A stretch of DNA of 64,000 nt from a virus, in IMG/VR virus record IMGVR_UViG_3300035670_010691, positions 1 to 64,000 of that record. One strand, 5' to 3'. The position numbers were made by a program, and so were the translations under genes. The notes under the pieces were generated by a model, which searched no databases, was not told where the DNA came from, and saw nothing but the letters and a program-made list of their open reading frames with translations. Below are positions 10,672 through 36,500 of the stretch, one piece after another. Position 1 is the first letter of the stretch; every line of letters starts with the position of its first letter.

Positions 10672-12705
10672 ATGGCAGAATTAAATTCAATAACGAAAAA
10701 AAGTAATAAAAATAGAGATATAAATTATCTTGCAAAAGATTTTGCATCATTTAGGCAAAATTTAATTGAGTATTCAAAAATTTATTTTCCTAAAACATAT
10801 TCTGATTTTAATGAATCATCACCCGGCATGCTTTTTATTGAAATGGCAGCATATGTTGGTGACGTTCTTTCATATTACATAGATGATACTCTTAAAGAGT
10901 CTTTAATGTTATATGCGGAGGATAGAGATAATGTTATAGCCCTTTCTCAGTATTTAGGATATAAACCAAAAATTACATCACCTGCAATTTGTAAAGTTGC
11001 AGTTTATCAATTAGTTCCAAGTATTGGTTTAGGAAAAGATAACAGACCCGATTCGAAATATTATTTTAGAATTAAGGAAGGGATGGTATTAGAAGGTTCA
11101 GATACGGGTGTAAGATTTAGAACAACTGAACCTGTTGATTTTAATGACCCCGATGAACGAGAAATTACTATTTTTCAAAAAGACGGAAATGAACCCCAAA
11201 CATACCTTATTAAAAAATATGTAAATGCAATTTCAGCAACACAGAAAACAATTAGAAAAATTTTCTCTGATATAGAAAGTTTTGCAAGAATTGATTTACC
11301 TGAAAAAAATGTTATTGATATAACCGATGTTAGAGATTCCGATGGTAACAAGTGGTATGAAGTTCCATACTTGGCTCAGGAAATGGTGTATGTAGATTAT
11401 CCAAATTCTGAACAAAATGATAAAGAACTTTATCAATTTAAAGACTCAGTTCCGAGTATTTTAAAATTAATTAAAACACAAAAAAGATTTGTAAAACAAA
11501 TTAATTCAGACAATACAACTTCAGTAGTATTTGGTGGAGGTAGTGAAGTTACTTCTGATGAGACTTTAATACCAAATTTTAAAAATGTTGGTTTAGGCTT
11601 ACCAAACTCAATAGATAGATTAAATTCTTCTTTTGACCCTGCAAATTTTCTTAAACAAAAAACCTACGGTCAAGCTCCTCCTATAAACAAAGAATTTACA
11701 GTAACTTATTTAGTTGGTGGTGGTGTTCAAAGTAATGTTTCTAAGGGTGAATTAACAAGAATAATTTCAATAGAATATGATGAAGATACCTCAATTTTTT
11801 CTGAAACCGAGTTATCTTTATATAGACGATATAAGAGTTCAATTGCAATTGAAAATGAGACACCTGCCACAGGTGGTAAGGGAGCAGAAACAATCGAAGA
11901 AATTAGAGAAAATGCACTTGCTACATTTGGGTCACAGAACAGAGCAGTAACACGAAAAGATTATCAAGTACGTGCTCTTTCCTTACCTCCAAAATATGGT
12001 GGCGTTGCAAAAGCATATTGTGCTCCTGATGGTGAATTGGATAATAATTCCCCATCTTCTATTTTAACAAATCCAGATCACTTACAAGAATTTACTGATT
12101 TAGTAAAATCATTTGTAGATAAACCTGATAATCAGGAACCGTCTGAGCAAGAAATTAAAGACCAAATTAGAAAATTTTTAATTGGTAAAAAACAAAACAT
12201 AGATGAAAAAAATAATCCTTTTGCAATAAATCTTTATTTACTCGGATATGATAGTGAAAAAAAACTTACAACTTTAAACAGAGCTGTTAAAGAAAATGTA
12301 AAGACCTACCTCAACGAATTTAGAATGCTTACCGATGGTGTAAATCTTTTAGATGGTTTTATTATTAATATTGGAGTTGATTTCGAAATTAGAGTTTATG
12401 GTGGTTATAATAAAAGAGAAGTTCTTATAAGATGTATTAATGAACTAAAGGAATATTTTAATATTGATAATTGGACGTTTAACATGACAATTAATATTTC
12501 AGAAATTGAATTATTAATTGCAGGTGTTGAGGGAGTTCAATCTGTTCCAAAATGTGAAATAGTTAATAAATGTAGTGGAGTTTATTCAGAACATTCGTAT
12601 AATATTTTAGCAGCAACAAGAAACAAACTTGTATATCCATCATTAGATCCATCGGTATTTGAAGTTAAATACCCCGACAAAGACATAGTAGGGAGAGTCG
12701 TATAA
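10672..12705 (+). CDS. Baseplate wedge protein, T4 gp6/baseplate J-like
   Basis: DFASFRQNL, DFNESSPG, LSYYID, LGYKP, GGKGAETIEEIR, QNRAVTRKDY. Confidence 0.85.
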   Translation: MAELNSITKKSNKNRDINYLAKDFASFRQNLIEYSKIYFPKTYSDFNESSPGMLFIEMAAYVGDVLSYYIDDTLKESLMLYAEDRDNVIALSQYLGYKPKITSPAICKVAVYQLVPSIGLGKDNRPDSKYYFRIKEGMVLEGSDTGVRFRTTEPVDFNDPDEREITIFQKDGNEPQTYLIKKYVNAISATQKTIRKIFSDIESFARIDLPEKNVIDITDVRDSDGNKWYEVPYLAQEMVYVDYPNSEQNDKELYQFKDSVPSILKLIKTQKRFVKQINSDNTTSVVFGGGSEVTSDETLIPNFKNVGLGLPNSIDRLNSSFDPANFLKQKTYGQAPPINKEFTVTYLVGGGVQSNVSKGELTRIISIEYDEDTSIFSETELSLYRRYKSSIAIENETPATGGKGAETIEEIRENALATFGSQNRAVTRKDYQVRALSLPPKYGGVAKAYCAPDGELDNNSPSSILTNPDHLQEFTDLVKSFVDKPDNQEPSEQEIKDQIRKFLIGKKQNIDEKNNPFAINLYLLGYDSEKKLTTLNRAVKENVKTYLNEFRMLTDGVNLLDGFIINIGVDFEIRVYGGYNKREVLIRCINELKEYFNIDNWTFNMTINISEIELLIAGVEGVQSVPKCEIVNKCSGVYSEHSYNILAATRNKLVYPSLDPSVFEVKYPDKDIVGRVV

Positions 12706-13763
12706 TGTATTATTTTGTTACTTCATCAAAAGATGCAACCATTTATTTACAGCAACCATCACAGAATACAGGTAGAGATGAAATACTTGAAATTTCTAAA
12801 ACTTATTATGGAAATTTAAAAGATGTTGCTCATTCACTAATTAAGTTTGATACCGACACTCTTTCTACACTTATTTCGAATGGCGAAGTAACGATGTCTG
12901 AAGCAACTCTTATTTTAAGAGAAGCAGAAAGTGATGAAATTCCACTTGATTATACTATTTACGCAAATCCAATTTCTGGTAGTTGGGAAATGGGTATTGG
13001 TACTCGTTTTGATGAAATATCATCACAGGGTGTTACCTGGTCTAATCGTTCAACCAATGTTAGTTGGTTGATTGGTAGTTATGATACGGGTGTAACTGGT
13101 TCATTTGATGGTAAAGGTGGAACTTGGTATACGGGTTCAGAATCTACACAATCATTTTCTTATGAGTCAGTAGATATTTTTATGGATGTTCTTAATCCGA
13201 TGAAAGAATGGTTAAGTGGTTCTCTTCCAAATGAGGGTTTCATCTTAAGACATTCATCTGCTTTTGAAAATGATACAAATGACTACGGTCAATTAAAGTT
13301 TTTCTCAAAAGAAACAAATACAATATACCAACCAAAAATTAGAATTGGTTGGGATGATTCATCATTTAGTACAGGCTCACTTACTGAATTAACTGCAGAT
13401 GATATTCAAGTTACTTTCAAACGACTTAAAACAAAATACAAAGTTAACTCAAAACCTGTTATAAATGTTTTTGGTAGAGAATTGTATCCTCTTAAAACAT
13501 ACCAAAATCAATTTGCGTACAACGATATAAAGTACTTACCATCTACAACTTATTACCAAATTAAAGATGTAATAACAGATGAAGTTCTTATACCATTTTC
13601 TGATTACTCAAAAGTTTCGTGTGACTCTAATGGAAATTATTTTAAATTAAATCTTACAAATTGGGAAACAAATAGAGAATATTATATTGAAATTAAAGTA
13701 GAAAGAGATGGAGTTATAGAATACTTCTCGGATAAAGACTTAACTTTCTTGGTTGAAAAATAA
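12705..13763 (+). CDS. Putative virion structural protein
   Basis: KDATIY...NTGRDEILEI, FFSKETNTIYQPK; five [ST]GS motifs; baseplate operon context. Confidence 0.6.
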   Translation: MYYFVTSSKDATIYLQQPSQNTGRDEILEISKTYYGNLKDVAHSLIKFDTDTLSTLISNGEVTMSEATLILREAESDEIPLDYTIYANPISGSWEMGIGTRFDEISSQGVTWSNRSTNVSWLIGSYDTGVTGSFDGKGGTWYTGSESTQSFSYESVDIFMDVLNPMKEWLSGSLPNEGFILRHSSAFENDTNDYGQLKFFSKETNTIYQPKIRIGWDDSSFSTGSLTELTADDIQVTFKRLKTKYKVNSKPVINVFGRELYPLKTYQNQFAYNDIKYLPSTTYYQIKDVITDEVLIPFSDYSKVSCDSNGNYFKLNLTNWETNREYYIEIKVERDGVIEYFSDKDLTFLVEK

Positions 13764-15172
13764 TGGGTTTAGATAAAGAATTTAGAATCGAGGAATTACT
13801 TAAAAGTGGTTCTACTGCAATTACTTCTCTTGATGAAGATAAGAGACACACGTTTTTTGTACCTTCTCCAAGAGGTGACCGTGATGGTGAAACATCGGGT
13901 TATATTGAAAAACCAAAATATAACGAACGTGAGCTTACAAAGGTTGTTGATACAGTTATAGATGAATTAGTACCACCACCACCGCCACCGCCAAGGCAAC
14001 AATTTGTTTTAAAAAGTTTATACGATCAATTAAGTAATGATTATAATCTTTTGTTAGAACAAATTGCTAATTTGCAAACTCAGGTTAGAAATTTAGAATC
14101 ACAGGTAAATTTACTTCAAAGTGAAAATACAGCTTTACAATCACAAATTCTTTCACAACAAGAAACAATAACATCTTTACAGGCTGTAATTGAATCATTA
14201 ACAGTACAGTTACAACAATCTATTAATGATAAAAATAATTTACAATCAGAAATAAATAACCTCAATATAAAAATTGCGGAATTGAATGCTCAAATAGAAG
14301 CATTAAAAGGAAATATTCAAAATAATCAGATAACTATTTCTTCTAATGAATCAACAATTAGTGATTTAAGAGCAGAAATACGAGAATTAAATAATCAACT
14401 TCAAGCAGCTACTCAACAAAATATTAATTTAGCTGGTTCTTTATCAGAATCAAAATCACAAAACGAGCAATTAAATAGTGGTATAAATCAGTTAAATGTG
14501 GAAAATTCCCAATTAAAAAGTGAAATTGAATCATTAAGAAGGGAAATAACACAATTATTAGAAAGAATTAGACAATTAGAATCTTCACAAGGTTCTCCGT
14601 CTTCTACCCCGACGCCTACAAGAGGTGGTGGTGGTGCAATTAGACCAACCCCAACTCCAACCCCGACAAGAAGAACAGGTGGCGGTAGTCCTGTACAGAC
14701 TCCAACCCCAACTCCAACGAGAACCCCAACCCCAACCCCAACGAGAACAGCAACTCCAACTCCAACAAGAACACCAACTCAAACTCCAGTTGCAACACCA
14801 ACTCCAACGGCAACATATGTTTCCGTAGATTGTATTGAATATAATGTAACTCCTTTACAAGCAATTGGTGGTGCAGTAGAAATTGAATATGTAGATTGTG
14901 GTAATCAACAAAGAAGACAAAGTGTAACTTCTATTATTACATTAAAGGCAAAAAGAAATAGTATTGAGTTTGTAAGTGGATATGGAATAGTAAGTGAAAA
15001 ATTTAATAATTTTTCAACTCCAACTCCAACACCTACACCAACATCTACACCCACACCAACTCCAACTTCGAATTTTGGAACTGGTGGTCAAACAGGGGAA
15101 CAAGGAGGTGGAACTGATACACAGGATGGACTTCCATCTATAAATGATGGTAACACGGGAAGAATAAGATAA
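13763..15172 (+). CDS. Putative virion protein: poly-Pro, long coiled coil, (PT)n tracts and small Cys domain
   Basis: PPPPPPP, ~190 aa of heptads, PTPTPTPT tracts, DCIEY...EYVDCG domain. Confidence 0.7.
   Translation: MGLDKEFRIEELLKSGSTAITSLDEDKRHTFFVPSPRGDRDGETSGYIEKPKYNERELTKVVDTVIDELVPPPPPPPRQQFVLKSLYDQLSNDYNLLLEQIANLQTQVRNLESQVNLLQSENTALQSQILSQQETITSLQAVIESLTVQLQQSINDKNNLQSEINNLNIKIAELNAQIEALKGNIQNNQITISSNESTISDLRAEIRELNNQLQAATQQNINLAGSLSESKSQNEQLNSGINQLNVENSQLKSEIESLRREITQLLERIRQLESSQGSPSSTPTPTRGGGGAIRPTPTPTPTRRTGGGSPVQTPTPTPTRTPTPTPTRTATPTPTRTPTQTPVATPTPTATYVSVDCIEYNVTPLQAIGGAVEIEYVDCGNQQRRQSVTSIITLKAKRNSIEFVSGYGIVSEKFNNFSTPTPTPTPTSTPTPTPTSNFGTGGQTGEQGGGTDTQDGLPSINDGNTGRIR
14596..14812 (+). 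repeat. Coding Pro-Thr low-complexity repeat (approximate bounds)
   Basis: ACN-CCN codon alternation with synonymous variation. Confidence 0.85.
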
Positions 15173-15176
15173 CAAA

Positions 15177-15185
15177 ATATTTATA
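15177..15185 (+). promoter_or_regulatory. Putative late promoter motif ATATTTATA
   Basis: Fills a 16 nt intergenic gap, 3 nt before ATG 15189. Confidence 0.5.
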
Positions 15186-15188
15186 TAA

Positions 15189-17165: not shown

Positions 17166-17180
17166 GAAAAATAAAAAAAA

Positions 17181-17189
17181 ATATTTATA
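17181..17189 (+). promoter_or_regulatory. Putative late promoter motif ATATTTATA
   Basis: Intergenic, 4 nt before ATG 17194. Confidence 0.55.
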
Positions 17190-17193
17190 GATA

Positions 17194-20100: not shown

Positions 20101-23100
20101 GCACTTGGAAGACAAGAAAAAATATCAATATTTTTTGACCAAGGTTTAAGAATTAGAAGAGAAGATTTAGTTTCAGATTTAAGAGATGCATTCCAAAGAG
20201 AATTTAATGCATCGATTATTAAAAAAGATACGTCAAAAATATTAACGCACCAATTACATTTGGGTGATGGTAATAACAAATTAATTGCTACTTGGGCAAT
20301 AGATAGACAAACTCTTGACGATGATAGTTTAGTTCTTAAATTATATGAACCTCTTCCAAATGATGTAGAAACAGAACAACAGGTTTGGATTTCAAAAATA
20401 CAATCTATACCTATTGTTGATGAAATTCGTTTAGTAGATAGAGAAGTTTCAAAATGTACCCCACTACAACCTAATTTTAATGTTGATGTAAGTGACCCTA
20501 TTGGATATGAAATTATTGATAGTTTAGTTTCAAGTGGTTCTATAACATCAGTTGATTTAATAGCACAATATGTAAGTTCAAGTGAATTTACTCTTGAAGA
20601 ATTAGATTTACAATTTATAACAGGTTCGGGTAGTAATATTGATTATTATTGGAAAGATTTTGTCAAGTATTCATCAGCAGAAGAAAGAGTAGAGAATTTC
20701 TTTTATAAAGTAAGATTATTAGAATCTTATCAAAATGATATAAATATTTTATCATCAGGATCAGCATGGACAGGTTCTGTTGAAGTGGTAAAAGAAAGAC
20801 AAAGAACAGAACAAAAAATAAAACAATTAAAGGGTGGGTTTGATTCTTTTGAAAAATATCTTTATGATACAACTGGTTCACTTTCATATCCAAAGGTTGG
20901 AATATCACCGGTTTCCTCTTCTACCCAAGATGCCCTTGATTGGTTATATGTTGCTCGTGCTTCTGCAAGGGAATATGACACTTATAATGTTGATTTACTT
21001 GTAAATAATATACCAAGACATATTAGAGATGATGAACGGGGTGAGGAATTTATCCTCTTTTTTAATATGATTGGTCAACATTTCGATATTCTTTGGGCAT
21101 ATTCAAAGGGTATTGCAAAATCAAGAAGATTAGAACATAAATTAAATGTTGGTATTTCAAATGATTTAATTTATCATATGTTGGAATCTCTTGGTTGGGA
21201 CGCGGACATGGGAGTTGCATCTCAACTTCTTTGGGAGTATGCTCTTGGTAAAAATACAGATGGAACATCAGCGAGCTCGCTACCAGGAAAACAAAGACAG
21301 TATGAAATATGGAGACGATTATTAAATAACTTACCTTATCTTTTAAAACATAAGGGAACAAGAAGAGCAATGTACGCTGCTATGGCGTGTTATGGAATAC
21401 CGACTTCTATGTTAAGTATCATGGAATTCGGTGGACCTAATGAACCGACAAGAGGTTCAACCACAAAGGTTACTTTTGATGACCGCACTGCTGCAATTAA
21501 TATTGATAATAATTCATCTATCATTATTCCATGGAAGGAATATGTAAGTGGTTCTTATTCAGATTATCCAAATTCGGTAGAAGCTCGTATTCTAACTACT
21601 CAAAGACAAACACAAACTATTTTTGAAAATGAAGGAAATTGGTCTTTAAAAATAACAAGTGATACTGGTTCACTTGCAAGATTACAATTTGAAATTACTT
21701 CAAGTGGTGTCCATAGAATACTTTCATCATCTACATTTCCTTTTTATAACGATGAATATACTCAAATTGTTTTAAATAGAAACATAACAGGAAGTAGTGA
21801 AGAATTTCAAGTTTGGGCAAAAGAAGGTTTCCAAGGTAGAATAAGAAACGAAGAATCGGCAAGTTTTAGTTGGCCAACTGGTTCTACGAGTTGGGAAAGT
21901 GGTTCTCAAATAATTGTTGGTTCTGATTTTACAGGTTCTATTGATGAGTTTCGTTTATGGAGAGTTGATTTACTTGAAACTTCTATTGAAAATCACGCAC
22001 TTATACCTGATGCTATTGATGGTAATTCTTATTCATCATCTACCGAAGACCTTTTATTTAGATTGGACTTCGAATATCCAAGAAACTTAGCAGTATCATC
22101 TTCAAGTGGAATACCATCGGGTTCAATTAAAAACGTTTCTATAAATCAGGGGTATGGTGAAAGTTATGCAACAGCTTCTAACTTCCCGTCAGCATCATCA
22201 TATCCTTTCAACTATACACCATATGATAGAACAGTAGTTGCAAATGTTCCTTCAATCGGATTGACATTCGGTGAAAAGTTCCGTTTTGAAGAACAAGAAA
22301 AAATAACAGATTTAAGTCATAAAGCAAGAGCAACTAAAAAATCATTTGACCAGGCTCCCATTGACACGGATAGATTAGGTTTATTTTTCTCTCCCGTTCA
22401 AGAAATAAACATGGATATTCTTAAATCACTTGGTAATTTCAATATAGATGATTATATTGGAAATCCAGCTGATTTATATGAGGACAAATATAGTGATTTG
22501 GAACAATTAAGAGAATATTATTTCCAAAGATATAATCTTAACTTTAATGAATACATTCAATTAGTAAGATATATTGATAAAACTATTTATACCACACTTG
22601 AATCACTTGCACCTGCAAGAGCAAAGGTTTCAAAGGGATTATTAATAGAACCACACTTTTTAGAAAGAAGTAAAACTAAATGGGAAAGACCGACAGGGTT
22701 AGTTGAAGGTGAGGAAACAAATTTACCAATTGTAGTTCCTGTTACATCATCTTATATTAACAATGAAGTAACTTTAAATTTAGAAAATGAAGTTTCTATA
22801 AATGGTGAAAATTTTGTTTATGATTCTAATCCTATAGATACAATAAATGAAAACCTAGCCTCAGAAAATATATCATTCGAATCTGATTTAGATGCAACAC
22901 AAATTACAAATTTGTCATCTGACAATATTACTTATGAATCAGATTTAGATATTAATGATGATATTGTTATTGAAGCAACAAAAGATAACTTTATTTCATT
23001 AATTGAATTAAATGAAAATATTTTATTGGAAACATCTAAAATTGATTACCAAACTAATTTAAATCTAAAAGAAGATTTTCCGATAGATAGTGAAATATTA

Positions 23101-23715
23101 GTAAATTCCGGATCAGATATGGGTGGTATTTCAATTTCTGTAAATGCACAAATTGTGGGTACAATTCAAGGTGAATACGAATCTGATGTTTTTAAAGAAA
23201 TTGGTTTAGATAAAAACTCCCCTTTTGTAGCCGGTTTTGGATTATATGCAGAAGATGGAAATTCAATAAGAAGTTATTATGATGACTATGGAAACTTAAA
23301 ACAAGAAAGAGTTAAAGTATTTAAAATAAAAGAGTCATATACAGTAAAAACTCCTGAAAATATTAATACATCCGATTCGAGTTTGGGTAGTGAAAAAATT
23401 TCAAGAACATATTTTAGAAATAAAATATCAATACTACCATTTACAGGTAGTAATGGATTGGAGATAAATGACCCACAAGTTTCTGGTAATATAACAGAAG
23501 TATCTCCTTTGAATGGATATTTACCTTCACATTATCGTTATGTTGGAGACTTAACTTCTGGATTGATTAATAGTTATCATAAGGGTGCAAAACAAACATC
23601 TTTGACAACATTAGATGGTTCATCACCCGTTCAAATCTTTACTACAAATCCAAATACTTTACGAGTTACAGATACAGGTAGAGGAAGTGGCGAGCCAATT
23701 CTTGAGGTTGAATGA
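17194..23715 (+). CDS. Large virion/baseplate protein (2173 aa): N-terminal tandem beta domains with Pro-rich linkers; C-terminal half with tail-protein-like and LamG-like segments
   Basis: Five PPP-K..I-led repeats; LLKHKGTRRAM (tail/baseplate-type KGT motif); FTGSIDEFRLW (LamG-like). Confidence 0.65.
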   Translation: MSLIEEPNNPGDLTNTDPEGKVPQPGDGSGNDTIVFEGDSGGGGVPSPTPTPTPTEATVDAGDKNVIIGFFTNILGAEVLQDNQSLGVSFTPVEVKYTTKELLTPKFFSVRKENSESTDIFKIYTVKKRTDFKKNFDLNTTVFFYFDIIVEKFIEGSFKQVRVISPYRDGELINENRDEYLRLDFKLTQAPPPPQKTVNINFITNFPTSNFPLSYRLPDGTTGKVSSKTIKYTFRDVDFGEGLLQPQIEIYPTDILTNYEFPLYRLEFSNGFTLNFPGPSALSTLTPELDITFRIEAKQIPPAPKKINIVFQNDLFDDEQLTYKLSTDGIRQLPNGSSTVTYTLKDKDNFITFGSLDGPGTLPNDVAVRYEIQEANGNIKEFSTPYFSYNFGDTDIRVKTLFTKNPPPPPIPTKLPPLPKICNDINASNYGQEGDCVYPPPPKKIKIIFENDLAIDDLLYFKLSDSVRTPLINGRTELEYTLKSTDNNIVFSTKTGGSLPELTSVNYQIESYYDNVTETRPDFRLDLNDSDVIVRTVLVKKDPPPPPPTPTKVVTSVLINVDSSLNQPLEISFSNGQTNVLSNGQNNFDYILKDGGPNYFSISNIKDLSGYNYTLQITNGNKQKFYENELNILEEIEVSKVFANIEIVKKPETVIVLPTPTPTPTPTPVEEKPIKITITSDVVLDDALAVRLSNGVVENIRNGSKTLLYKPNINGANYLEFFPVSNVNYSEYSISYSIQNGNKLREINTFDFKEEINNSDIGIFIVLNKITQQPRADEPTLSLPDEIITYNLFGSSKLEIPFYSLNAESIRYSIGNIQREISPVSPIVLENSVFNNGVGQYKLTAQPYSRFGGSGKNKSLVINVIQSTFIPGPDIQTINYPSRIQGEDFVGFNVNFDIDYSSINTNYIKIYVSKVDESFLLLGNAKPNGKITFNVGEILSKSRLSYNRGTDQISFDLILVPYNNQADELALGRQEKISIFFDQGLRIRREDLVSDLRDAFQREFNASIIKKDTSKILTHQLHLGDGNNKLIATWAIDRQTLDDDSLVLKLYEPLPNDVETEQQVWISKIQSIPIVDEIRLVDREVSKCTPLQPNFNVDVSDPIGYEIIDSLVSSGSITSVDLIAQYVSSSEFTLEELDLQFITGSGSNIDYYWKDFVKYSSAEERVENFFYKVRLLESYQNDINILSSGSAWTGSVEVVKERQRTEQKIKQLKGGFDSFEKYLYDTTGSLSYPKVGISPVSSSTQDALDWLYVARASAREYDTYNVDLLVNNIPRHIRDDERGEEFILFFNMIGQHFDILWAYSKGIAKSRRLEHKLNVGISNDLIYHMLESLGWDADMGVASQLLWEYALGKNTDGTSASSLPGKQRQYEIWRRLLNNLPYLLKHKGTRRAMYAAMACYGIPTSMLSIMEFGGPNEPTRGSTTKVTFDDRTAAINIDNNSSIIIPWKEYVSGSYSDYPNSVEARILTTQRQTQTIFENEGNWSLKITSDTGSLARLQFEITSSGVHRILSSSTFPFYNDEYTQIVLNRNITGSSEEFQVWAKEGFQGRIRNEESASFSWPTGSTSWESGSQIIVGSDFTGSIDEFRLWRVDLLETSIENHALIPDAIDGNSYSSSTEDLLFRLDFEYPRNLAVSSSSGIPSGSIKNVSINQGYGESYATASNFPSASSYPFNYTPYDRTVVANVPSIGLTFGEKFRFEEQEKITDLSHKARATKKSFDQAPIDTDRLGLFFSPVQEINMDILKSLGNFNIDDYIGNPADLYEDKYSDLEQLREYYFQRYNLNFNEYIQLVRYIDKTIYTTLESLAPARAKVSKGLLIEPHFLERSKTKWERPTGLVEGEETNLPIVVPVTSSYINNEVTLNLENEVSINGENFVYDSNPIDTINENLASENISFESDLDATQITNLSSDNITYESDLDINDDIVIEATKDNFISLIELNENILLETSKIDYQTNLNLKEDFPIDSEILVNSGSDMGGISISVNAQIVGTIQGEYESDVFKEIGLDKNSPFVAGFGLYAEDGNSIRSYYDDYGNLKQERVKVFKIKESYTVKTPENINTSDSSLGSEKISRTYFRNKISILPFTGSNGLEINDPQVSGNITEVSPLNGYLPSHYRYVGDLTSGLINSYHKGAKQTSLTTLDGSSPVQIFTTNPNTLRVTDTGRGSGEPILEVE

Positions 23716-24442: not shown

Positions 24443-25681
24443 ATGGCAGAAATTATAGGACAAGCCGGAACCAATTTAACAACTGAATTAGCTAATTACC
24501 TAAATAGATCAAATGGTAATATTAATTCACAAGAACTTGCTGGTATTATAAACCAATATCTCGTTGGTGGTGATAAACTTGGAGCACAAGGTTCCCAAGT
24601 ATCAACCGGAATTTATAGAAGATTTTTAGAAACAGATGTTGTTGCAGGAAAAGTTGAAGTAGTAACAACAGGGTTGTGGAGTGGTGATACAGGTAGTTTA
24701 AATTTATTCTTTACTTCATCAACTGAACTTGCAAACGCATCGATTTCAAATTATTACACAAATGTTTATAATGAAAACCCAAGTTCATCAGCATCAACTG
24801 TTCAATTTGCAGTTGCTTATGGTCACAGACTCGCAAGTGGTTCTGTTTCATTAAGTTCAAACGATAGTGCAACTTTACCGACAAAAGCAACATATGCACA
24901 ATATCGTTCAATCTTATTAGACCAAGACCAAACACAATTTGAATATTATTCTCCAACAGGTTCTGGTGTATATGCATCTGATGAAATTTATGTAGTAAAT
25001 GTATCTCGTAGTAGATATAAAGAAAAATTAGACGCAGGAAACTGGTCATTAACTCTTTCGGGTTCTAATGGAACATTTACTTTTATTGATGATAGTGGTA
25101 AGAAATTCGATGATAGAGTTGGTAAGGCTGGTAGAATATTTTACGTTGGTTCGGGTTCATTAAATTTAGGAACTGAAAACGCAGCAACAGTTAATACATT
25201 AACCGCTTCTAATGGTGAGGGGTATGGTCTTTTCTATCCTGACCAAGGTATTTTTGTATTAAATCCAGTTGCTATCCATGACACAGTTGGTTCATCATTT
25301 TCTGTATCAGGTTCGGCACAAGTATCACTTTCAGAACCATATAGAGGATCAGCTTACGAAGCTAAAAATCAATTCCTTTTATATAACATGATATCTGGTG
25401 GTAGTGATTTTGAAGCACGTAGAACTGAAAATGTTTCAACTACCCATTATTTCGTAAGAGCAACTAACAGAGAGTTTAATTATTCAAATAACCCAACCTT
25501 TGTTACTGGTTCTGATGGAACATTTGCAGAATCATCTTTCGAAAGAGACCCAAGAACATTTATAACAACCGTGGGTCTATACAATGATGCGAACGAGTTG
25601 TTGGCAGTTGCAAAAACATCACAACCGATTCCAAAATCATTCGATAAAGAAGTTCTAATAAAAGTTAAATTAGACTTCTAA
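24443..25681 (+). CDS. Putative virion structural protein with tail-collar-like C-terminus
   Basis: EFNYSNNP...ITTVGLYNDANELLAVAK; seven [ST]GS motifs; followed by a terminator. Confidence 0.6.
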   Translation: MAEIIGQAGTNLTTELANYLNRSNGNINSQELAGIINQYLVGGDKLGAQGSQVSTGIYRRFLETDVVAGKVEVVTTGLWSGDTGSLNLFFTSSTELANASISNYYTNVYNENPSSSASTVQFAVAYGHRLASGSVSLSSNDSATLPTKATYAQYRSILLDQDQTQFEYYSPTGSGVYASDEIYVVNVSRSRYKEKLDAGNWSLTLSGSNGTFTFIDDSGKKFDDRVGKAGRIFYVGSGSLNLGTENAATVNTLTASNGEGYGLFYPDQGIFVLNPVAIHDTVGSSFSVSGSAQVSLSEPYRGSAYEAKNQFLLYNMISGGSDFEARRTENVSTTHYFVRATNREFNYSNNPTFVTGSDGTFAESSFERDPRTFITTVGLYNDANELLAVAKTSQPIPKSFDKEVLIKVKLDF

Positions 25682-25782: not shown

Positions 25783-26934
25783 ATGTTTAAGTCGATTCCC
25801 AAATCATCAGTATCAAAACGAAATTTTAAAACATTTAAAAGATGGAATGTTGGTAATTCATCTTATCCCGTAATCTCTGCAAGTTTTGATTCGAGTTCCA
25901 ATTTTGATTCATCTACTGAATTAAGTTTTGATGTAAATGGAACAACTATTTATAACAGACCTTATTATAATTCCCTCAAAGCAAAATATTATCAAAGTAA
26001 TGGAAATGTCATAACTCAGTTTGGGGTTATGGAAAATCCTGCAAATTTTCAAATAGAAAGAAGATTACCAAATACTTTTTATGTCATTTCAATCGATAGA
26101 GATAAATTTGGTGAACAGATAAAACAAAATTCTTTAATTTTAGAAGATTTAGATAATAATACAACATATAATGATGATGGTTATGGCTCTCTTATAAAAG
26201 AAACATATGATTATTATTTATTAAATTTAGATTTAGGTCAGGGAACTGTAACTGTTTATGATGGATTTAATACATTTACATTAGATGTTATTACAATTGA
26301 TATGCTTAACAATGAAGCAACATTACTTTATAGTGGACAAACAATTGAAACATTTCCTGTTGAGTTTGATTTTGGAGAAGGTATTGTTAGATTTTCAGAA
26401 CAAATACCTGCTGTCGGTGATTTATTTTTAGAAAACGTTAGATACGGAAATGTTTTTTATGATGATGGTTTAGTTGTTTTAACCAATGAAGTTCAATTTG
26501 AAAATTACAATTTAATTTTCAATTCCACTCATACAATTTATGAAACGGAAGTATTGATTAATGTAGATGAAGGTGAATTTAATTATTCACAAAATCCATC
26601 TGCTGTAATCGTAGAATTAAGCGGTTCATATCAATTTGAAACAACACCAATAACGAATGTAAGTCCTGCTCAAAATGTAACTATAAAACATATAAATCAA
26701 ATAAAATTAAAACAATCATTTTCTGGTTCATATAATCCAAATATTACAGGTTCTTGGGATGATTATTCTTTAAATAGATGGTCTGACCCAACAGGTTCTT
26801 ATTTAACACCATACATAACAACAATTGGTTTATATGATGATGATGGTGATTTGGTTGTTGTAGCGAAATTACCTCAACCAATTAAATCATATCCTGATTT
26901 ACCTGTCAACTTTTTAGTTCGTTTTGATAGTTAA
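25783..26934 (+). CDS. Putative virion structural protein, paralogue of 24443-25681
   Basis: EFNYSQNP...ITTIGLYDDDGDLVVVAK; preceded by ATACTTATT motif variant at 25752. Confidence 0.6.
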   Translation: MFKSIPKSSVSKRNFKTFKRWNVGNSSYPVISASFDSSSNFDSSTELSFDVNGTTIYNRPYYNSLKAKYYQSNGNVITQFGVMENPANFQIERRLPNTFYVISIDRDKFGEQIKQNSLILEDLDNNTTYNDDGYGSLIKETYDYYLLNLDLGQGTVTVYDGFNTFTLDVITIDMLNNEATLLYSGQTIETFPVEFDFGEGIVRFSEQIPAVGDLFLENVRYGNVFYDDGLVVLTNEVQFENYNLIFNSTHTIYETEVLINVDEGEFNYSQNPSAVIVELSGSYQFETTPITNVSPAQNVTIKHINQIKLKQSFSGSYNPNITGSWDDYSLNRWSDPTGSYLTPYITTIGLYDDDGDLVVVAKLPQPIKSYPDLPVNFLVRFDS

Positions 26935-27147: not shown

Positions 27148-27723
27148 GTGAGTTCTTGTGTAAATCATGATCAAAAATGGGGATATATTCATATCCCCAA
27201 AACAGCCGGAACCACAATATCAAATATTTTAAGTTACACAGGAAATGTAGAAGGACTTGAGCATAGTCATTCCGCAATTAATAAGTTTCCCTCAAATTAT
27301 TTTATTTTTACTTTTGTAAGAAATCCTTTTACTAGATATCTTTCTATGTTTTTTCATGAAACTAAATTAGGAAGATTTAATGGTAATATGTATGAATTTA
27401 CCAAACACACGAACAAAAACATAGTATTTAATCCCCAAATTTATTTTATAAAAACTGGTGAAACCGAAAATAAAAAGGTAAATTTTATTGGAAGATATGA
27501 AAATCTTTTCAATGATATAAATTTTGTATTAGAAAAAACAGGTAATAAAAAAGTTTCTCAAATACCTCATTTAAATAAAAATTCAATTTATGAAAAACAT
27601 CCAAATTTAAATCAACAAAAATATTATGAGATTTATTTGAGGGATAATTACATAAGAGAATATATAAAAGAAAAGTATATAGAAGATTTTCAATATTTTA
27701 AATATGACATGGTTATACAATAA
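27148..27723 (+). CDS. Sulfotransferase family 2 (carbohydrate sulfotransferase-like)
   Basis: HIPKTAGT (5'-PSB) and FTFVRNPFTRYLS (3'-PB) PAPS-binding motifs; FIGRYENL; EDFQYFKY. Confidence 0.85.
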   Translation: MSSCVNHDQKWGYIHIPKTAGTTISNILSYTGNVEGLEHSHSAINKFPSNYFIFTFVRNPFTRYLSMFFHETKLGRFNGNMYEFTKHTNKNIVFNPQIYFIKTGETENKKVNFIGRYENLFNDINFVLEKTGNKKVSQIPHLNKNSIYEKHPNLNQQKYYEIYLRDNYIREYIKEKYIEDFQYFKYDMVIQ

Positions 27724-28135: not shown

Positions 28136-28153
28136 ATATACAAAATAAAATGT

Positions 28154-29092: not shown

Positions 29093-29093
29093 A

Positions 29094-29633
29094 ATGAAAA
29101 TTATAGAAAATTTTTTTAGTGATGAAGATTTTAATTTTTTAAATGAAAAAAGTTTAGAAATTTATAATAATAAAAATACTTCAAAAAACACATGGAATTA
29201 CAATGTAAAACAATTTTCAAAAGAAATAGAAGTTTATGACTTAAAAGAAGAGAATACTATATACTCTGTTATAAATAAGACACTTATTTACTATAATATT
29301 TTCAATTATTCTCCCCAAATGAGATTTTTTTATTGTCCTCCTGGTTCTTACATACCATGGCATACCGATGAGGGTTGGTATTCTGCATTGACAATTTATT
29401 TAAATGATAATTGGAATTTTGAATTTGGTGGGTTATATCAATACTATGATGATAATGAAATAAAAACAATAATTCCACGTAAAAATTTAGCATTATTTCA
29501 AAAGGGAGGTATATCCCATAGTACAACAATACAATCAGTTTATTCACCAATTAGAAGAAGTGTACAAATACATTTCATAGACTCGTATAATTCGGATATT
29601 TACGAAAAAAAAACAAATAAATCTCTTATTTAA
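29094..29633 (+). CDS. 2OG-Fe(II) oxygenase, prolyl-hydroxylase-like
   Basis: PGSYIPWHTD (HxD), TIYLNDNW..FGG, distal His (HSTT) and RRS. Confidence 0.85.
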   Translation: MKIIENFFSDEDFNFLNEKSLEIYNNKNTSKNTWNYNVKQFSKEIEVYDLKEENTIYSVINKTLIYYNIFNYSPQMRFFYCPPGSYIPWHTDEGWYSALTIYLNDNWNFEFGGLYQYYDDNEIKTIIPRKNLALFQKGGISHSTTIQSVYSPIRRSVQIHFIDSYNSDIYEKKTNKSLI

Positions 29634-29641
29634 AAATCTCT

Positions 29642-32797: not shown

Positions 32798-32871
32798 TAC
32801 GAAGACTATAAACCAAAAAAAAATAATAGAACTCCAAATTATGTTTGAAAGTAAATGATGTTTGTTGTATT

Positions 32872-33057
32872 TCATTTAGTTTTTAAAACATTAAACGTTT
32901 TATTTACTTCAAGTTTTCGGACACTTGCGTATTGATCAATAAGTCTTTCAATTACCTTACTCATTTTTTTATCATTTTCAGTACAAAATTCTTTTAATTT
33001 TAAATGATGTTGTTCTGAAATTTGTATCATTTTATATCGTTTCATACCTTTATCCAT
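32872..33057 (-). CDS. Small ribbon-helix-helix-like DNA-binding protein
   Basis: KMIQISEQHHLKLKEFC...MSKVIERLI pattern; overlaps the upstream minus-strand gene. Confidence 0.55.
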   Translation of the reverse strand: MDKGMKRYKMIQISEQHHLKLKEFCTENDKKMSKVIERLIDQYASVRKLEVNKTFNVLKTK

Positions 33058-33440
33058 TTTCTTTCACTATTAAGGGTAAATGAACCAATATGTTCTCTTT
33101 TTTTCCAATATTCAGGTTCTATAAGAGATAAAAACATTTCACCATCGTCACCAACAAAAAGGTGGTATGTATCTCCGATGACTGGTTCAAAATTAAATTT
33201 AGATTTATAAACTAATTCATTCCACTTAAACTCTTCAACAAGTTTTAAATATTCATCTTTTAATTCATTAAATTTTGTTTTTAATTGGTGATTGACTTTA
33301 ATAACACTTTGTTGTTTCCAAGTAACAACATCATCCATTTTGATGGCGGGAGCTCCAACATTTGTCCCATATGGAAGGACATTAGCTATGTATCCCCGTT
33401 CATCATCAAAAACAATTAAATCCGATTTCTTTTTATTCAC
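33042..33440 (-). CDS. DUF2452-like protein (GTG start)
   Basis: LPYGTNVGAPAI and FEPVIGDTYHLF...FLSLIEP motifs as recalled for this family. Confidence 0.6.
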   Translation of the reverse strand: MNKKKSDLIVFDDERGYIANVLPYGTNVGAPAIKMDDVVTWKQQSVIKVNHQLKTKFNELKDEYLKLVEEFKWNELVYKSKFNFEPVIGDTYHLFVGDDGEMFLSLIEPEYWKKREHIGSFTLNSERKWIKV

Positions 33441-33463
33441 TTTATTTTTCTATAGATTTCTAA

Positions 33464-33471
33464 TATAAATA
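33464..33471 (-). promoter_or_regulatory. Late motif on the minus strand (reads TATTTATA)
   Basis: TATAAATA on +, 23 nt upstream of the minus-strand start at 33440. Confidence 0.5.
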
Positions 33472-33493
33472 CAGGAATATCCTTAATTTTTTA

Positions 33494-33502
33494 ATATTTA
33501 TA
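33494..33502 (+). promoter_or_regulatory. Putative late promoter motif ATATTTATA
   Basis: 20 nt before tail fibre ATG 33523, back-to-back with the minus-strand copy. Confidence 0.55.
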
Positions 33503-33522
33503 GAAAAATATTTTATTGAATA

Positions 33523-36500
33523 ATGCCCATAATCAAATCATTTGCACCAAAATTAAATTTAACAAATTATCAAACTTTTTTAGTTGATGATGATCCTAAT
33601 TCTACATATTTTAGAATTACAGAATTTCAGGAGACATTTACGGGTGGTAAAAATGGTTTTCTAATTGAAGGTTCATCGTTTTTAAAACCGACTACAGAAA
33701 TTAAAATTGAATTGTTAGATGTAGCCGGTAATCCAATATATTTTGAACCAGGGGACGGTATTCCTGAATATTATGAAGGTTTATCAAAATTAATATCAGT
33801 TCATGTTTATGATGATACACCAATTGGACTCGGTAAAATTACAATTTTAGGAGAACTTTCACAATATATTGATAATACTGGTATAATTCGTGATGTTCCA
33901 AGTGAATGGAAGGGTGTTTATAATGTAAAATGGGAAAGAGTTTTTCAAGTAAATAAAAATCTTTCAAACGAAACGATAGTCCGATTTGTTAAAAGACCAG
34001 TAATACAAATTGATGAAATTGTTAAACCTATCTTTACAAAGGATATACCACAAATTACACAAACGGGTACTGCATCAGGTGTTGGTGAAAATCCAGGTGA
34101 GGGAACGAGTTTAACGGGCTACAGAGCAGGTACTCTTTATCGTATTGCAATTACGGATACTTCAAACTTTACTTCTTCTATTGACGAAAATGTAATTAGT
34201 TTTCCAAGTTTAGGATATTCAGCAACAGTAAAAGAAGTCCTTAATAACAAAGAAGTTTTAGTAGATACTCCCTACACAGTTAATAGCATTGTTACCAATT
34301 TTCAAAATCAATCTTACACTTCAACTTACGAATACCCAGCCGGTGCAATAACCGAGGAAAGTGCTCTTACAGGTTCATTTGCAAAAGTAAATATTTCAAA
34401 TTTAAAAACTTTCGTTGGTGACGTAGCAAGAGTAAAAGTTTATAGAAAAAGTAGAAATGAGGTGGGTGATTTTCAATTGGTTCAAGACTCTCGTTTAGAA
34501 TCGGTTGAGTTATTAAGAGATATAACAATTACAAGTGATACCGAACTTAATTATGGAGTTTTACAACCCTCTACTTTCCAAGATTATTGGATAACAAGTT
34601 CAAACCACCCAACAGAGTTTGATGATACTTATTTATTTGCTTCCTTAAAATCAGATTATGATACAGGTACGGGTGGAACCTTTACCCTTCTTACTTCACA
34701 ATCTTTTAATATAAGTGATAATGTAGAATATAATTTATCATTTAAAACAAGATTAAGTGGGTCTGTTTCTCCTACCAAAACCATAAGTGCTTTCCTTACG
34801 GGTTCGTATTCATCATCGGTAAATGGAAATCCTGTTTTGGTACAATACCGACAAAACTTTATCAGCAGAAGTGTTGATAACACATATCTTCAAAGAAAGA
34901 ATATAAGTGAAAATATCATTTCAAATTTTAGTGGAAGTGCAAGACTTGGGTTTGAATTTGTTGGTGATGATTGGTATGTAGCAAATATAAGTTTAAAGAA
35001 TGCTCAGGAAACTTCATTTTCACCTGATGAGTTTACCTTAATACAAGAAGTACCGAGAAAATTACCAAAAGAAACTTTTGATTTTCGTTTTGAATTTTAT
35101 GATATAAATAACAACTTCATACCCGTTGAAGTAACAGCTACAAAAGAATTTACGGGTGGTAATACAAGTGACACTTCTACCCTTACCAAGTTTTTAAATT
35201 TTGAAAGTGATAGAACTGCTTTTCGTTTTACAACGGGGTCACTTGGTAATCCTGAATTTCAACAAATTGCTTTTAAAGTATCAAGTAATTTATTAACAGG
35301 TTCAGTCACTTATACTTCACAGGCATTCGACTTTACTGGTTCTTTACTAACAAGTGAGTCTTATGATGGAGGACAATATCCTGGATTTCTTACAAACGCA
35401 TCAACAGCTGGTGCTACTCTTACAATAGCAAACTTTACGGGTTCAAGAAATGATGTTATTGTTGGTTCTATTGTTTATACTGCATCTCGTGAAGATTTCC
35501 AAGAGTTTGAAACTGTTTATCGTTTTGAAGATGGTGAAAACGCACCAAACCTTTTTGCAACTTCAAATGCAAATCAATTTATTTATGAACCAACTACGAT
35601 TTCTCCAAAACCTTCGGGACAAGAAATACGAATTCAGGTAAAAAGAAAAAACTTAGCATCATTAATAACTCCAATTACTGCAAATTCATCTTCTGATGCC
35701 CCATTGACGGTAGTTGATGATGTAAATGGCATTAAAACATTTTCTATTTCAGCAACACAGTTTTCACAAAGTTTATTTGTCGGACAGAACGGCCCGTACC
35801 AAGATGTAACCTATTCATTTACCGCGAGTGATGAATTTAATAATCCATTTAGTGATGAGATTACTATTTCTCCGGTAATTAACTTTGATGGTATTTCTGT
35901 TGTTTTATCAAATGAAAATACATCATTTAGGGCAAATTCACTTGGAACAGTAACTTCAACAGAATTTGATGAAGGAGACGGGTTTGTCACAGTTAATATA
36001 GGTAATGAGTCTATATCACATAATAATGGATTATCACAAAGAAACACATTTGATATAACATCTGTAACACCTACTGCAAATATAACACCAAATTCATTTA
36101 CACCGAGCACAAATTCTTATGGAATTTCTGCTATGTCAGTTGATAGTGGTTCTATTGATATAAACATAAGTTATAAAGCGGGTGACAACTTTACAACACA
36201 ATCATTTGTTAAAAAAGTTAATTATACCAAAAATAGAATAGCAGCTCCTGTAATTTCAATACAAACAACAAATAAAAATCAAACGGTATCGGCATATTCA
36301 ACGGGAGTTCAAACAGGTACGTTTTCTAATGCGTTTGTTACTGTAAATGAAACTTATTTAGGTAATACTAATTCTAAAACTATTACCTCACTTACCGCGG
36401 TTAGACAAGATACATTAGCAAATCTTACAACGAACCCATCAACGGGAGAAATTACATTATCTGGTCAAACTCTTGCAACAGGGGTAGATAGTACAACTGT

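What the first reader, a model, noticed from the sequence alone, without database searches (positions are those of the whole stretch)
12705..35500. Recurrent [S/T]-G-S tripeptide in virion proteins: candidate glycosylation sequon
Seen (manual counts): 5 in the 12705 protein, 15 in the C-terminal half of 17194 and none in its PT-rich N-terminal half, 7 in 24443, 4 in 25783, and 8 in the first ~650 aa of the tail fibre. I noticed only two in the non-structural ORFs (4810, 5576). The proteins are mostly unrelated, so this is not a domain repeat. Known: animal proteoglycan linkers are built on Ser-Gly sites and extended by the GT7 enzyme B4GALT7. Inference: the motif is a convergently gained acceptor signal for the phage's own modification machinery.
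Basis: partly seen in the sequence, partly recalled or inferred. Interest (0 to 1): 0.8.

Follow-up and report, generated by a model that had tools for sequence, protein, structure and literature searches.

The report
Ser/Thr-Gly-Ser tag on phage tails

Summary
Observation confirmed. [ST]GS is 8-10x above composition in those segments (20,000 shuffles each). TGS (22 vs 1.9) and SGS (17 vs 2.5) are the two most over-represented of 8000 tripeptides there, while SGT, NGS, DGS and AGS are not enriched.

It is a clade trait. Orthologues in 79 related contigs, 150 distant family representatives and the cultured phages immuto, Mel-JY01 and RM378 keep it; T4 does not. Sites lie where conserved strands meet indel-prone loops and are regained at non-conserved positions.

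Interpretation only partly supported. The GT7/B4GALT7 link fails:
- Relatives without GT7 have the same excess, 5.9x against 5.1x.
- Proteoglycan-type SGxG or acidic flanks are not enriched.

Those GT7-less relatives instead carry, behind the fibre, a clear homologue of TibC, a serine-specific protein heptosyltransferase (E 2.3e-49). Elsewhere TibC homologues sit next to [ST]GS-rich tail sheath and fibre genes.

Best reading (about 0.45): an exposed Ser-loop acceptor for phage-directed O-glycosylation. Main rival (about 0.35): a lineage-specific structural turn.

This scan noted the motif before on other DNA.

The parts
12705..13763 (+). 352-aa outer baseplate protein directly after the gp6-like wedge gene. 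It has 5 [ST]GS sites (residues 91, 131, 143, 171, 223).
   Evidence: 5 vs 0.49. In 121 family members the sites at 131, 143, 171 and 223 carry the motif in 121, 100, 78 and 118 sequences. No Pfam, PHROG or PDB relative.
20494..23715 (+). C-terminal half (residues 1101-2173) of the 2173-aa structural protein 17194-23715, with 15 [ST]GS sites. The PT-rich N-terminal half has none.
   Evidence: 15 vs 1.51; N-half 0 vs 0.72. Orthologues in 67 of the 80 loci carry 1-16 motifs. Weak LamG_3 match at residues 1467-1598, below Pfam's cut-off.
24443..25681 (+). 412-aa conserved baseplate or fibre-attachment protein with 7 [ST]GS sites (83, 132, 172, 206, 237, 289, 355).
   Evidence: 7 vs 0.95. More than 7,400 homologues. 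150 representatives carry 673 motifs vs 104 expected. Sites lie at strand-to-loop boundaries, and two lie in lineage-specific insertions.
25783..26934 (+). 383-aa protein with 4 [ST]GS sites (280, 314, 322, 337). Its C-terminal ~100 residues are homologous to those of 24443.
   Evidence: 4 vs 0.37; E 7e-7 to 24443 residues 317-411.
33523..35472 (+). First 650 residues of the 3337-aa tail fibre (33523-43536), with 8 [ST]GS sites. The remaining 2687 residues are at background.
   Evidence: 8 vs 1.03; rest 10 vs 8.2, p=0.30.
43560..64000 (+). Window part of a ~38-kb sugar-enzyme island behind the fibre. It holds GT2-like genes, SDR epimerases, a methyltransferase, three GT7+LamG_3 proteins (49567-51030, 51691-53139, 53136-54575), two twitch radical-SAM proteins and a DegT fragment. 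This is context only: a link to the motif is inferred, not shown.
   Evidence: None of these proteins carries the motif. Almost no homologues in immuto, Mel-JY01 or RM378.
27148..27723 (+). Sulfotransferase (PF03567) between the motif-bearing genes and the replication genes. Context only.
   Evidence: Present in 28 of the 80 related loci; those without it still have the motif excess.

Best explanation
[ST]-G-S, usually framed by hydrophobic residues, marks short exposed loops at the ends of beta-strands on the outward-facing tail proteins: outer baseplate proteins, the base of the fibre and, in relatives, the sheath's outer domains and fibres. The most likely reading is that these loops are acceptor sites for cytoplasmic O-glycosylation of the virion by soluble phage-encoded glycosyltransferases before or during assembly. 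The invariant third-position Ser is the likely acceptor. This would work the way bacterial autotransporter heptosyltransferases (TibC/Aah) modify loop serines.

The initiating enzyme is not fixed across the clade. Close relatives carry a TibC homologue plus heptose-activation genes behind the fibre. This phage carries a different 38-kb island at the same place, and its initiating transferase is not identified.

Shown: the enrichment, its specificity, its conservation and turnover, its restriction to outer tail proteins, and the gene neighbourhoods. Inferred: loop exposure (no structure model could be made), any modification at all, the acceptor residue, and which enzyme acts here.
For: 1. Strict word specificity. 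TGS 22/1.9 and SGS 17/2.5, while SGT, NGS, DGS, AGS, GGS, SGN and TGN are at or below expectation. 39 of 53 GS dipeptides follow S/T, and 39 of 63 [ST]G are followed by S.

2. The same specificity holds at non-conserved positions of the 24443 family (118 sequences, five conserved columns masked). SGS is 123/31 and TGS 93/26, against SGT 27/26, NGS 15/24, DGS 14/18 and AGS 25/23.

3. Sites sit where conserved hydrophobic strands meet indel-prone segments. Two of the seven in 24443 lie in insertions that 55-85% of homologues lack. Positions -1 and +3 are hydrophobic in 23 and 24 of 39 sites, against 31% background.

4. The fold does not need the motif. Family members with 0-1 motifs exist: 12 of 150. 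T4 has no excess genome-wide (19 vs 27.3) and none in its sheath, gp6, gp7 or fibres.

5. A protein O-glycosyltransferase is present in the clade. The G003 381-aa protein matches only TibC in the PDB (E 2.3e-49, residues 43-375 vs 42-381). TibC's D110, T226, K230, W305 and the Cys-rich C-terminal motif are kept. It lies behind the fibre next to a PfkB kinase and a cytidylyltransferase-like gene. TibC modifies Ser but not Thr (passage read in PMC4358343).

6. Outside the window-clade arrangement, the next ORF downstream of a TibC homologue is motif-enriched (p<0.01) in 10 of 16 evaluable 90% clusters, and one of the next two ORFs in 12 of 16. These ORFs are tail sheath (phrog_23, E 1.5e-72) and tail fibre proteins. 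Their motifs lie only in the N-terminal two thirds of the sheath.

7. All 4 complete relatives with the orthologous motif-rich module encode glycosyltransferases. T4, HTVC008M and S-PM2 have no GT1 match and little or no excess.
Against: - No chemistry: nothing shows an attached sugar.
- No glycosyltransferase family tracks the motif. GT7 is absent in immuto, Mel-JY01, RM378 and LR756508. TibC/GT9 is absent from this contig, the five other GT7-island contigs, immuto, RM378, LR756508 and the complete genome G015. The immuto_89-type GT is absent from this contig and 13 clade contigs. One sequon read by several unrelated initiating enzymes is not parsimonious.
- In fibres of relatives the word is part of repeating structural units: the SGSxFSGS modules of G003 and the collagen-like GXY repeats of Mel-JY01. 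That fits a purely structural role.
- 4 of 7 sites in 24443 and 4 of 5 in 12705 are simply inherited.
- TibC's known sites (QNSGG, NTSAA) are not [ST]GS.
- The phage TibC homologue has Val at TibC's sugar-binding Arg-286 (read from the alignment).
- The TibC-adjacent sheaths are one protein family, so the 10 of 16 clusters amount to only about 4-6 independent cases.
- The distal 2687 residues of this phage's own fibre show no excess.
- Sequences in all family counts are related, so the counts overstate independent events.
Confidence: 0.45

Rival explanations
1. Purely structural motif. [ST]-G-S is this lineage's preferred tight turn or strand cap in beta-rich tail proteins (Gly in a left-handed conformation, Ser/Thr hydroxyls capping backbone NH groups). 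It is inherited and re-used because it folds well, and it is not modified.
For: - The Gly of the conserved sites is nearly invariant: G133 and G238 at 90% or more.
- Sites lie between hydrophobic strand-like blocks.
- In fibres of relatives the word is part of short repeating units such as SGSxFSGSxxL.
- The excess is kept across phages whose glycosyltransferase sets are unrelated.
- G-S is a common type II' turn pair (recalled textbook knowledge, not tested here).
Against: - Generic turn formers are not enriched: NGS 0/1.6, DGS 1/1.4, SGN 1/1.6, SGT 0/1.9, SGD 1/1.4. The same holds at sporadic sites.
- Homologous folds without the motif exist: T4 sheath 0, and 12 of 150 family members of 24443 with 0-1.
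- Two of the seven sites in 24443 lie in insertions that most homologues lack.
- The beta-rich distal fibre and the three LamG domains of the GT7 enzymes have no excess.
Confidence: 0.35
2. One reading: a proteoglycan-like Ser-Gly acceptor that is extended by the phage's GT7 (B4GALT7-like) enzymes.
For: - Three GT7 N+C domain proteins lie 24-29 kb downstream, and a PF03567 carbohydrate sulfotransferase lies next to the motif genes.
- GT7 genes are present in 5 of 14 related contigs.
Against: - The fold-excess is equal in 6 clade contigs that lack GT7 at the syntenic site: 5.9x against 5.1x.
- GT7 is absent from 4 of 4 more distant genomes that keep the motif.
- SGxG is 6 vs 4.8 and acidic-flanked SG 17 vs 18.5. 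Flanks are hydrophobic. Thr occupies position 1 in 22 of 39 sites.
- No GT14-type xylosyltransferase family appeared among the 30 island ORFs scanned.
- GT7 enzymes act on sugar acceptors, not on protein (recalled).
Confidence: 0.05
3. A tag read by something other than a glycosyltransferase: another modification of serine (phosphorylation, acylation, carbamoylation) or a docking site for an assembly chaperone or a partner protein of the outer baseplate.
For: - The motif is confined to proteins that probably contact each other at the baseplate periphery, and to the fibre's first 650 residues rather than its distal part.
- No single GT family co-varies with it.
- A carbamoyltransferase gene (5576-7288) sits in the baseplate module.
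Against: - No kinase or acyltransferase conserved across window, immuto, Mel-JY01 and RM378 was found by BLASTP.
- The carbamoyltransferase has no homologue in immuto, Mel-JY01 or RM378.
- The neighbourhood of TibC homologues points to sugars.
Confidence: 0.12
4. Chance, composition or a DNA-level repeat.
For: The proteins are rich in Ser, Gly and Thr.
Against: - Composition-preserving shuffles reach the counts in at most 1 of 20,000 for three proteins and 6 of 20,000 for 25783.
- Nine or more different codon strings encode the motif, using both Ser codon boxes.
- The S/T/G-rich proteins 23801, 13763, 7766 and 9010 have 0-1.
Confidence: 0.02

Closest known systems
Bacterial autotransporter heptosyltransferases (BAHT: TibC/TibA, Aah/AIDA-I; PMC4358343, passages read; PDB 4rap, 4rb4)
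   Same: - A soluble cytoplasmic GT-B enzyme puts sugar on many serines, and not threonines, of short loops in a beta-rich surface protein.
- The enzyme gene sits next to the substrate gene.
- Close relatives of this phage (G003, G004, G005, G008; weaker matches in G009 and G012) and Mel-JY01 encode a full-length TibC homologue (E 2.3e-49). It has heptose-activation-type genes beside it.
- Elsewhere such homologues lie directly upstream of [ST]GS-rich sheath or fibre genes.
   Different: - This phage's own 109-kb contig (45% of the genome) has no TibC or GT9 match.
- TibC's mapped sites are QNSGG and NTSAA, not [ST]GS.
- The substrates would be phage tail proteins, not autotransporters.
- The phage homologue has Val at TibC's Arg-286.
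- No activity has been measured.
Virion glycosylation of mycobacteriophages by phage-encoded glycosyltransferases (Freeman et al. 2023; known here only through the citing passage in PMC12619734; the paper itself is not held)
   Same: Phage-encoded glycosyltransferases decorate the phage's own structural proteins.
   Different: There the glycans sit at the C-termini of capsid and tail-tube subunits. Here the candidate sites are internal loops of baseplate, fibre and sheath proteins. The major capsid protein is at background (1 vs 0.6), and a defined tripeptide is involved.
Host recognition cluster of pelagimyophages and cyanomyophages (Zaragoza-Solas et al. 2020, PMC7029224; passages read)
   Same: A large variable island rich in glycosyltransferases sits beside the tail-fibre genes of marine T4-like phages.
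   Different: The paper reads the enzymes as modifying the host O-chain and reports no motif on virion proteins. HTVC008M shows only a weak excess: 55 vs 36 genome-wide, and about 3x in two large proteins.
Animal proteoglycan linker synthesis
   Same: Ser next to Gly; a GT7-fold enzyme and a carbohydrate sulfotransferase are encoded nearby.
   Different: No acidic flanks and no SGxG excess. Thr is allowed at position 1. The motif persists without GT7.
Chlorovirus-encoded glycosylation (GT B736L, PDB 3oy2)
   Same: A glycosyltransferase family shared by immuto, Mel-JY01, RM378 and LR756508 has B736L as its best solved relative (E 2.5e-15). Both are virus-encoded soluble GT-B enzymes.
   Different: That family was not found in this contig or in 13 clade contigs. 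B736L's own substrate is not known to me (recalled).

Membership tests
BAHT-type protein O-heptosylation (TibC/Aah) | A GT9-fold BAHT enzyme with the TibC N-terminal domain and the Cys-rich iron-binding C-terminal motif | tested here: not met
   There is no PF01075 match and no hit with an HMM of the phage TibC homologues in this 108,914-base contig, which is 45% of the genome. The feature is met in relatives G003, G004, G005 and G008 and in Mel-JY01. It is weaker in G009 and G012. For G003, TibC is the only PDB match at E 2.3e-49.
BAHT-type protein O-heptosylation (TibC/Aah) | Supply of ADP-heptose (HldE-type kinase and adenylyltransferase) | tested here: inconclusive
   A PfkB-family kinase lies at contig 75845-76606. 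It is 46-50% identical to the kinase beside the TibC homologues. The 133-aa neighbour at 74712-75113 gave no cytidylyltransferase match. The sugar specificity is unknown.
BAHT-type protein O-heptosylation (TibC/Aah) | Acceptors are serines (not threonines) in short loops of a beta-rich surface protein | tested here: inconclusive
   Position 3 is always Ser. SGT and TGT are not enriched. Sites lie at strand-to-loop boundaries.
BAHT-type protein O-heptosylation (TibC/Aah) | Heptose demonstrably attached | not testable with these tools
   This needs mass spectrometry of virions or of co-expressed proteins.
   SGxG is 6 vs 4.8 and [DE]x0-2SG is 17 vs 18.5 in 300 shuffles. Flanks are hydrophobic.
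   The excess is 5.1x in 5 GT7-island contigs and 5.9x in 6 contigs without GT7 at the syntenic site. GT7 is absent in 4 of 4 distant genomes that keep the motif.
   Three proteins have PF13733 and PF02709 above cut-off.
Mycobacteriophage-type virion glycosylation | Glycans on C-terminal tails of capsid and tail-tube subunits | tested here: not met
   Motif sites are internal. The major capsid protein at contig 106866-108485 has 1 vs 0.6. The defining feature is taken from the passage in PMC12619734.
Bacteroidota general O-glycosylation sequon D(S/T)(A/I/L/V/M/T) (recalled) | Enrichment of that sequon in the target proteins | tested here: not met
   21 observed vs 31.7 in shuffles of the five proteins.

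The most novel reading that the evidence does not exclude
A very abundant group of aquatic myoviruses writes a defined three-residue sequon, [ST]-G-S, onto exposed hairpin loops of its outer tail (baseplate rim, fibre base, sheath surface). It fills these sites in the host cytoplasm with sugars from interchangeable phage cassettes: a TibC-like serine heptosyltransferase module in some lineages, and the 38-kb GT7/LamG island in this one. That would be the first sequence-defined glycosylation code for tailed-phage particles.
Probability: 0.35. Interest if true: 0.8.

Novelty: new variant of a known kind. Interest (0 to 1): 0.62.

Why it matters
If the serines are modified, tail-surface glycosylation would be a common trait of abundant marine and freshwater phages. 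The 24443 family alone has more than 7,400 members in metagenomes. A sequence rule would then let sites be predicted from sequence alone. It would also change how the large glycosyltransferase islands beside marine phage fibre genes are read. They are currently read as host-surface modification (PMC7029224); they would instead be virion decoration, affecting adsorption, stability and grazing or enzyme resistance.

The idea is directly testable. Three relatives that show the excess are cultured: Flavobacterium phage immuto, Microcystis phage Mel-JY01 and Rhodothermus phage RM378. A TibC homologue can also be co-expressed with its neighbouring sheath protein in E. coli.

If the motif is only structural, it is still a useful marker of outward-facing tail proteins in this clade.

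My literature searches found no paper describing this motif or a phage TibC homologue. The scan itself has noted the same motif on other DNA several times.

Tried and rejected
- **Structure mapping.** As a substitute I used conservation and indel profiles.
- **PDB by sequence.** There were no relatives for 24443 (profile A1; only spurious caspase hits at E 0.03), for the fibre, for 17194 or for 12705, or for the two unassigned island ORFs. The ESM Atlas gave only unnamed viral clusters.
- **LamG comparison.** BLASTP of the weak LamG-like region of 17194 against a GT7 LamG domain gave nothing usable. The planned 'same fold with and without the motif' control within this genome was therefore dropped.
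- **A single conserved enzyme.**
  - GT7 was rejected.
  - The adjacent GT pair of immuto and Mel-JY01 (A2) was found in 0 of 15 further records.
  - The immuto_89 family (A3) is present in immuto, Mel-JY01, RM378 and LR756508. It is in 0 of 14 window-clade contigs, this one included.
  - TibC/GT9 was found in only 8 of 23 records, 5 of them above cut-off.
  - None of these tracks the motif everywhere.
- **GT-free negative control.** None was found: all 4 complete relatives have GT1 and/or GT2 matches. Window-clade contigs are 18-67% complete, so absence in them is weak evidence.
- **Larger clade contigs.** A 200,815-base metagenome contig (L230) was located, but its record is not held for the genome search.
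- **Other sequons.** D[ST][AILVMT], NxS/T and SGxG are not enriched. [ST]AS is mildly enriched, 17 vs 7.6.
- **DNA-level origin.** Rejected.
- **Rows dropped.**
  - One search kept 79 of 80 loci (one match shorter than 350 aa), and one search used 58 unique sequences of these.
  - Alignment A1 used 113 of the 150 representatives (those of 300-480 aa) plus 4 close homologues and the query.
  - could not evaluate 1 of the 17 clusters outside the window-clade arrangement (no downstream ORF).
  - One search examined 10 hand-picked adjacent ORFs and left out the low-complexity giants.
  - P-SSM2 was located but not analysed for the motif.

Full report
**What the window is.**
The window is the first 64 kb of a 108,914-base IMG/VR viral contig judged 45% complete. 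GC is about 30% and all genes lie on one strand. It is a distant T4-like ('far-T4') myovirus.
- Structural and replication genes: gp25-like (10233) and gp6-like (10672) baseplate genes, a primase, a fused SbcD/SbcC, and a SegE-like endonuclease.
- Later on the contig: terminase, portal, prohead protease and gp23-like capsid genes.
- The nearest cultured relatives by protein are Microcystis phage Mel-JY01, Flavobacterium phage vB_FspM_immuto and, more distantly, Rhodothermus phage RM378.

- With 20,000 composition-preserving shuffles per protein, the excess is 8-10-fold in 12705, 24443, 25783, the C-terminal half of 17194 and the first 650 residues of the fibre. The fibre's remaining 2687 residues are at background.
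- TGS and SGS are the two most over-represented of all 8000 tripeptides in these segments. Near-synonyms (SGT, TGT, NGS, DGS, AGS, GGS, SGN, TGN) are not enriched.
- In a scan that does not pre-select proteins, they rank just behind the PT-repeat words.
- The other 45 ORFs of the window hold 3 hits against 6.0 expected. The rest of the contig, capsid protein included, holds almost none.
- Many codon strings and both serine codon boxes encode the motif, so selection acts on the protein.
- The motif is framed by hydrophobic residues at -1 (23 of 39) and +3 (24 of 39), against 31% background.

**It is a clade trait, partly inherited and partly renewed.**
- Orthologues of 17194, 24443 and 25783 in the 80 related viral loci almost all show the excess. 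Orthologues of 15189, 23801, the primase and SbcCD show none.
- 150 representatives of the 24443 family (33-61% identical) carry 673 motifs against 104 expected.
- Five columns are conserved. After masking them, the remaining positions still show SGS 123/31 and TGS 93/26, with no excess of any neighbouring word. These sequences are related, so the counts overstate independent events; the contrast between words does not suffer from that.
- The sites of 24443 sit where conserved strand-like blocks give way to variable, indel-prone segments. Two sit in insertions that most homologues lack.
- In 121 homologues of 12705, four of the five sites are kept.
- The orthologous baseplate and fibre modules of immuto, Mel-JY01 and RM378 show the same excess. 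In immuto, so does the tail sheath.
- Controls: T4 has none (19 vs 27.3 genome-wide; 0 in gp6, gp7 and the sheath). S-PM2 and HTVC008M have a weak excess of about 1.5x overall.

**The GT7 reading fails.**
The island behind the fibre is real. It holds three GT7+LamG proteins, GT2-like genes, SDR enzymes, radical-SAM proteins and a DegT fragment, and it continues to about 81 kb. However:
- Its genes have almost no homologues in immuto, Mel-JY01 or RM378, and GT7 is absent from them and from LR756508.
- Within the window's own clade, six contigs that cover the syntenic place lack GT7, the SDR epimerases and GT2. They nevertheless show a 5.9-fold excess in the three orthologues, against 5.1-fold in five GT7-island contigs.
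- Proteoglycan-type contexts (SGxG, acidic flanks), the Bacteroidota D[ST][AILVMT] sequon and NxS/T are not enriched.

**What replaces the island in those relatives.**
In G003 and G005 the fibre gene is followed by only four sugar genes:
- a 720-aa GT1 + methyltransferase protein;
- a 381-383-aa GT9 protein with a TibC N-terminal domain;
- a PfkB kinase;
- a cytidylyltransferase-like gene.

The last two match the two halves of an HldE-type heptose activator.

The GT9 protein matches only TibC among all PDB sequences (E 2.3e-49, nearly full length). Four of the five residues that the TibC paper names as catalytic or sugar-binding are conserved, as is the Cys-rich C-terminal motif. Arg-286 is replaced by Val. 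TibC is a cytoplasmic enzyme that heptosylates serines, not threonines, of the TibA/AIDA-I passenger (passages in PMC4358343).

GT9 matches occur in exactly the six syntenic GT7-less clade contigs and in Mel-JY01. They do not occur in this contig or the other five GT7-island contigs. So two alternative cassettes occupy the same place.

TibC homologues occur in at least 165 viral contigs. In 16 evaluable 90% clusters outside the window-clade arrangement, the next downstream ORF is [ST]GS-enriched in 10, and one of the next two ORFs in 12. These neighbours are tail sheath and tail fibre proteins. SGS (53 vs 8.3) is again their top tripeptide, and their motifs lie only in the N-terminal two thirds of the sheath. 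By recalled knowledge of T4 gp18, that region holds the exposed domains. Many of these sheaths are homologous to each other, so this amounts to roughly 4-6 independent cases.

**Weighing.**
- For a modification tag: the strict word specificity; renewal at loop positions; restriction to outward tail proteins; folds that exist without the motif; and a bona fide serine-specific protein glycosyltransferase family placed next to motif-rich tail genes.
- Against: no chemistry; no single transferase family follows the motif; the motif is embedded in repeating fibre units in relatives; most sites here are simply inherited; TibC's known sites differ from [ST]GS; and this phage's own contig has no TibC homologue.
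- I put the glycosylation-acceptor reading at about 0.45, a purely structural turn at about 0.35, another kind of tag at about 0.12, the GT7/proteoglycan mechanism at about 0.05, and chance at about 0.02.

**Relation to earlier notes of this scan.**
The same or a wider motif ([ST]-[GAS]-S) has been noted on other genomes of this phage group, with BAHT or mycobacteriophage glycosylation named as the closest known.
- I used two of those notes as leads: a 'pair of sugar-transferase genes' and BAHT.
- I could reproduce the pair only in immuto and Mel-JY01, not in this clade.
- I found the TibC homologue independently by Pfam and PDB searches.
- Notes that the motif vanishes where the island is lost are not borne out in this clade. 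The motif persists there, but a TibC cassette stands in the island's place.

**Limits.**
- Freeman et al. 2023 is not held and is cited only through another paper's passage.

Noticed in passing
L306:2958-4103 (-) in G003; L311:16610-17761 (-) in G005; also G004, G008, G009, G012 and Mel-JY01 4747-8430: A full-length homologue of the protein heptosyltransferase TibC lies directly behind the tail fibre in relatives that lack the big island. TibC is its only PDB match (E 2.3e-49). Beside it are a GT1+methyltransferase protein, a PfkB kinase and a cytidylyltransferase-like gene. In Mel-JY01 the domain is fused into a 1227-aa multi-GT protein next to collagen-like, motif-rich proteins.
   Followed up: yes
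L359:12254-13963, L397:7387-9519, L381:6910-8325 and neighbours (loci L356-L401): In other viral contigs the TibC homologue sits just upstream of a tail sheath or tail fibre gene that is itself [ST]GS-enriched (for example 6 vs 0.7 and 8 vs 1.3). The arrangement recalls tibC-tibA.
   Followed up: partly
window 13763-15172, 15189-17165, 17194-20493: Long Pro-Thr tandem runs (PTP 59 vs 3.7 and TPT 68 vs 6.7 over the window) lie in three neighbouring structural proteins. These are linker-like segments and carry no [ST]GS.
   Followed up: no
window 5576-7288: A NodU/CmcH-type carbamoyltransferase (both Pfam domains, E 1e-65 to 1e-70) sits inside the baseplate gene block. It is shared with HTVC008M (31% identity) and G001 but not with immuto, Mel-JY01 or RM378.
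   Followed up: no
window 27148-27723: A carbohydrate-type sulfotransferase (PF03567) lies between the baseplate genes and a SegE-like GIY-YIG endonuclease. It is present in only 28 of the 80 related loci.
   Followed up: partly
G003 11503-22260 and 23187-40982 (L303-L305); G005 4272-16256: Giant Ser/Gly-rich proteins of 3585, 5931 and 3994 aa lie beyond the head genes. They carry 178, 37 and 223 [ST]GS motifs and repeated modules of the type ...FSGSG.ELFDIP.SALSED...
   Followed up: partly
window 24443-25681 (residues 317-411) and 25783-26934 (residues 279-382): The two proteins share a C-terminal ~100-residue module (E 7e-7). The same module occurs as the end of many differently sized proteins in the family search.
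   Followed up: no
immuto 49128-51883; Mel-JY01 84024-86302; RM378 9165-10619; LR756508 305447-306742: A GT-B glycosyltransferase family is shared by all four complete relatives. In immuto and Mel-JY01 it is paired with a second GT. Its best solved relative is the chlorovirus glycosyltransferase B736L (E 2.5e-15). It was not found in the window's clade contigs.
   Followed up: partly
window 29642-32797 and 2906-3526: SbcD-like and SbcC-like (gp47/gp46-type) parts are fused in one 1051-aa protein. The phage also encodes a peptide deformylase.
   Followed up: no
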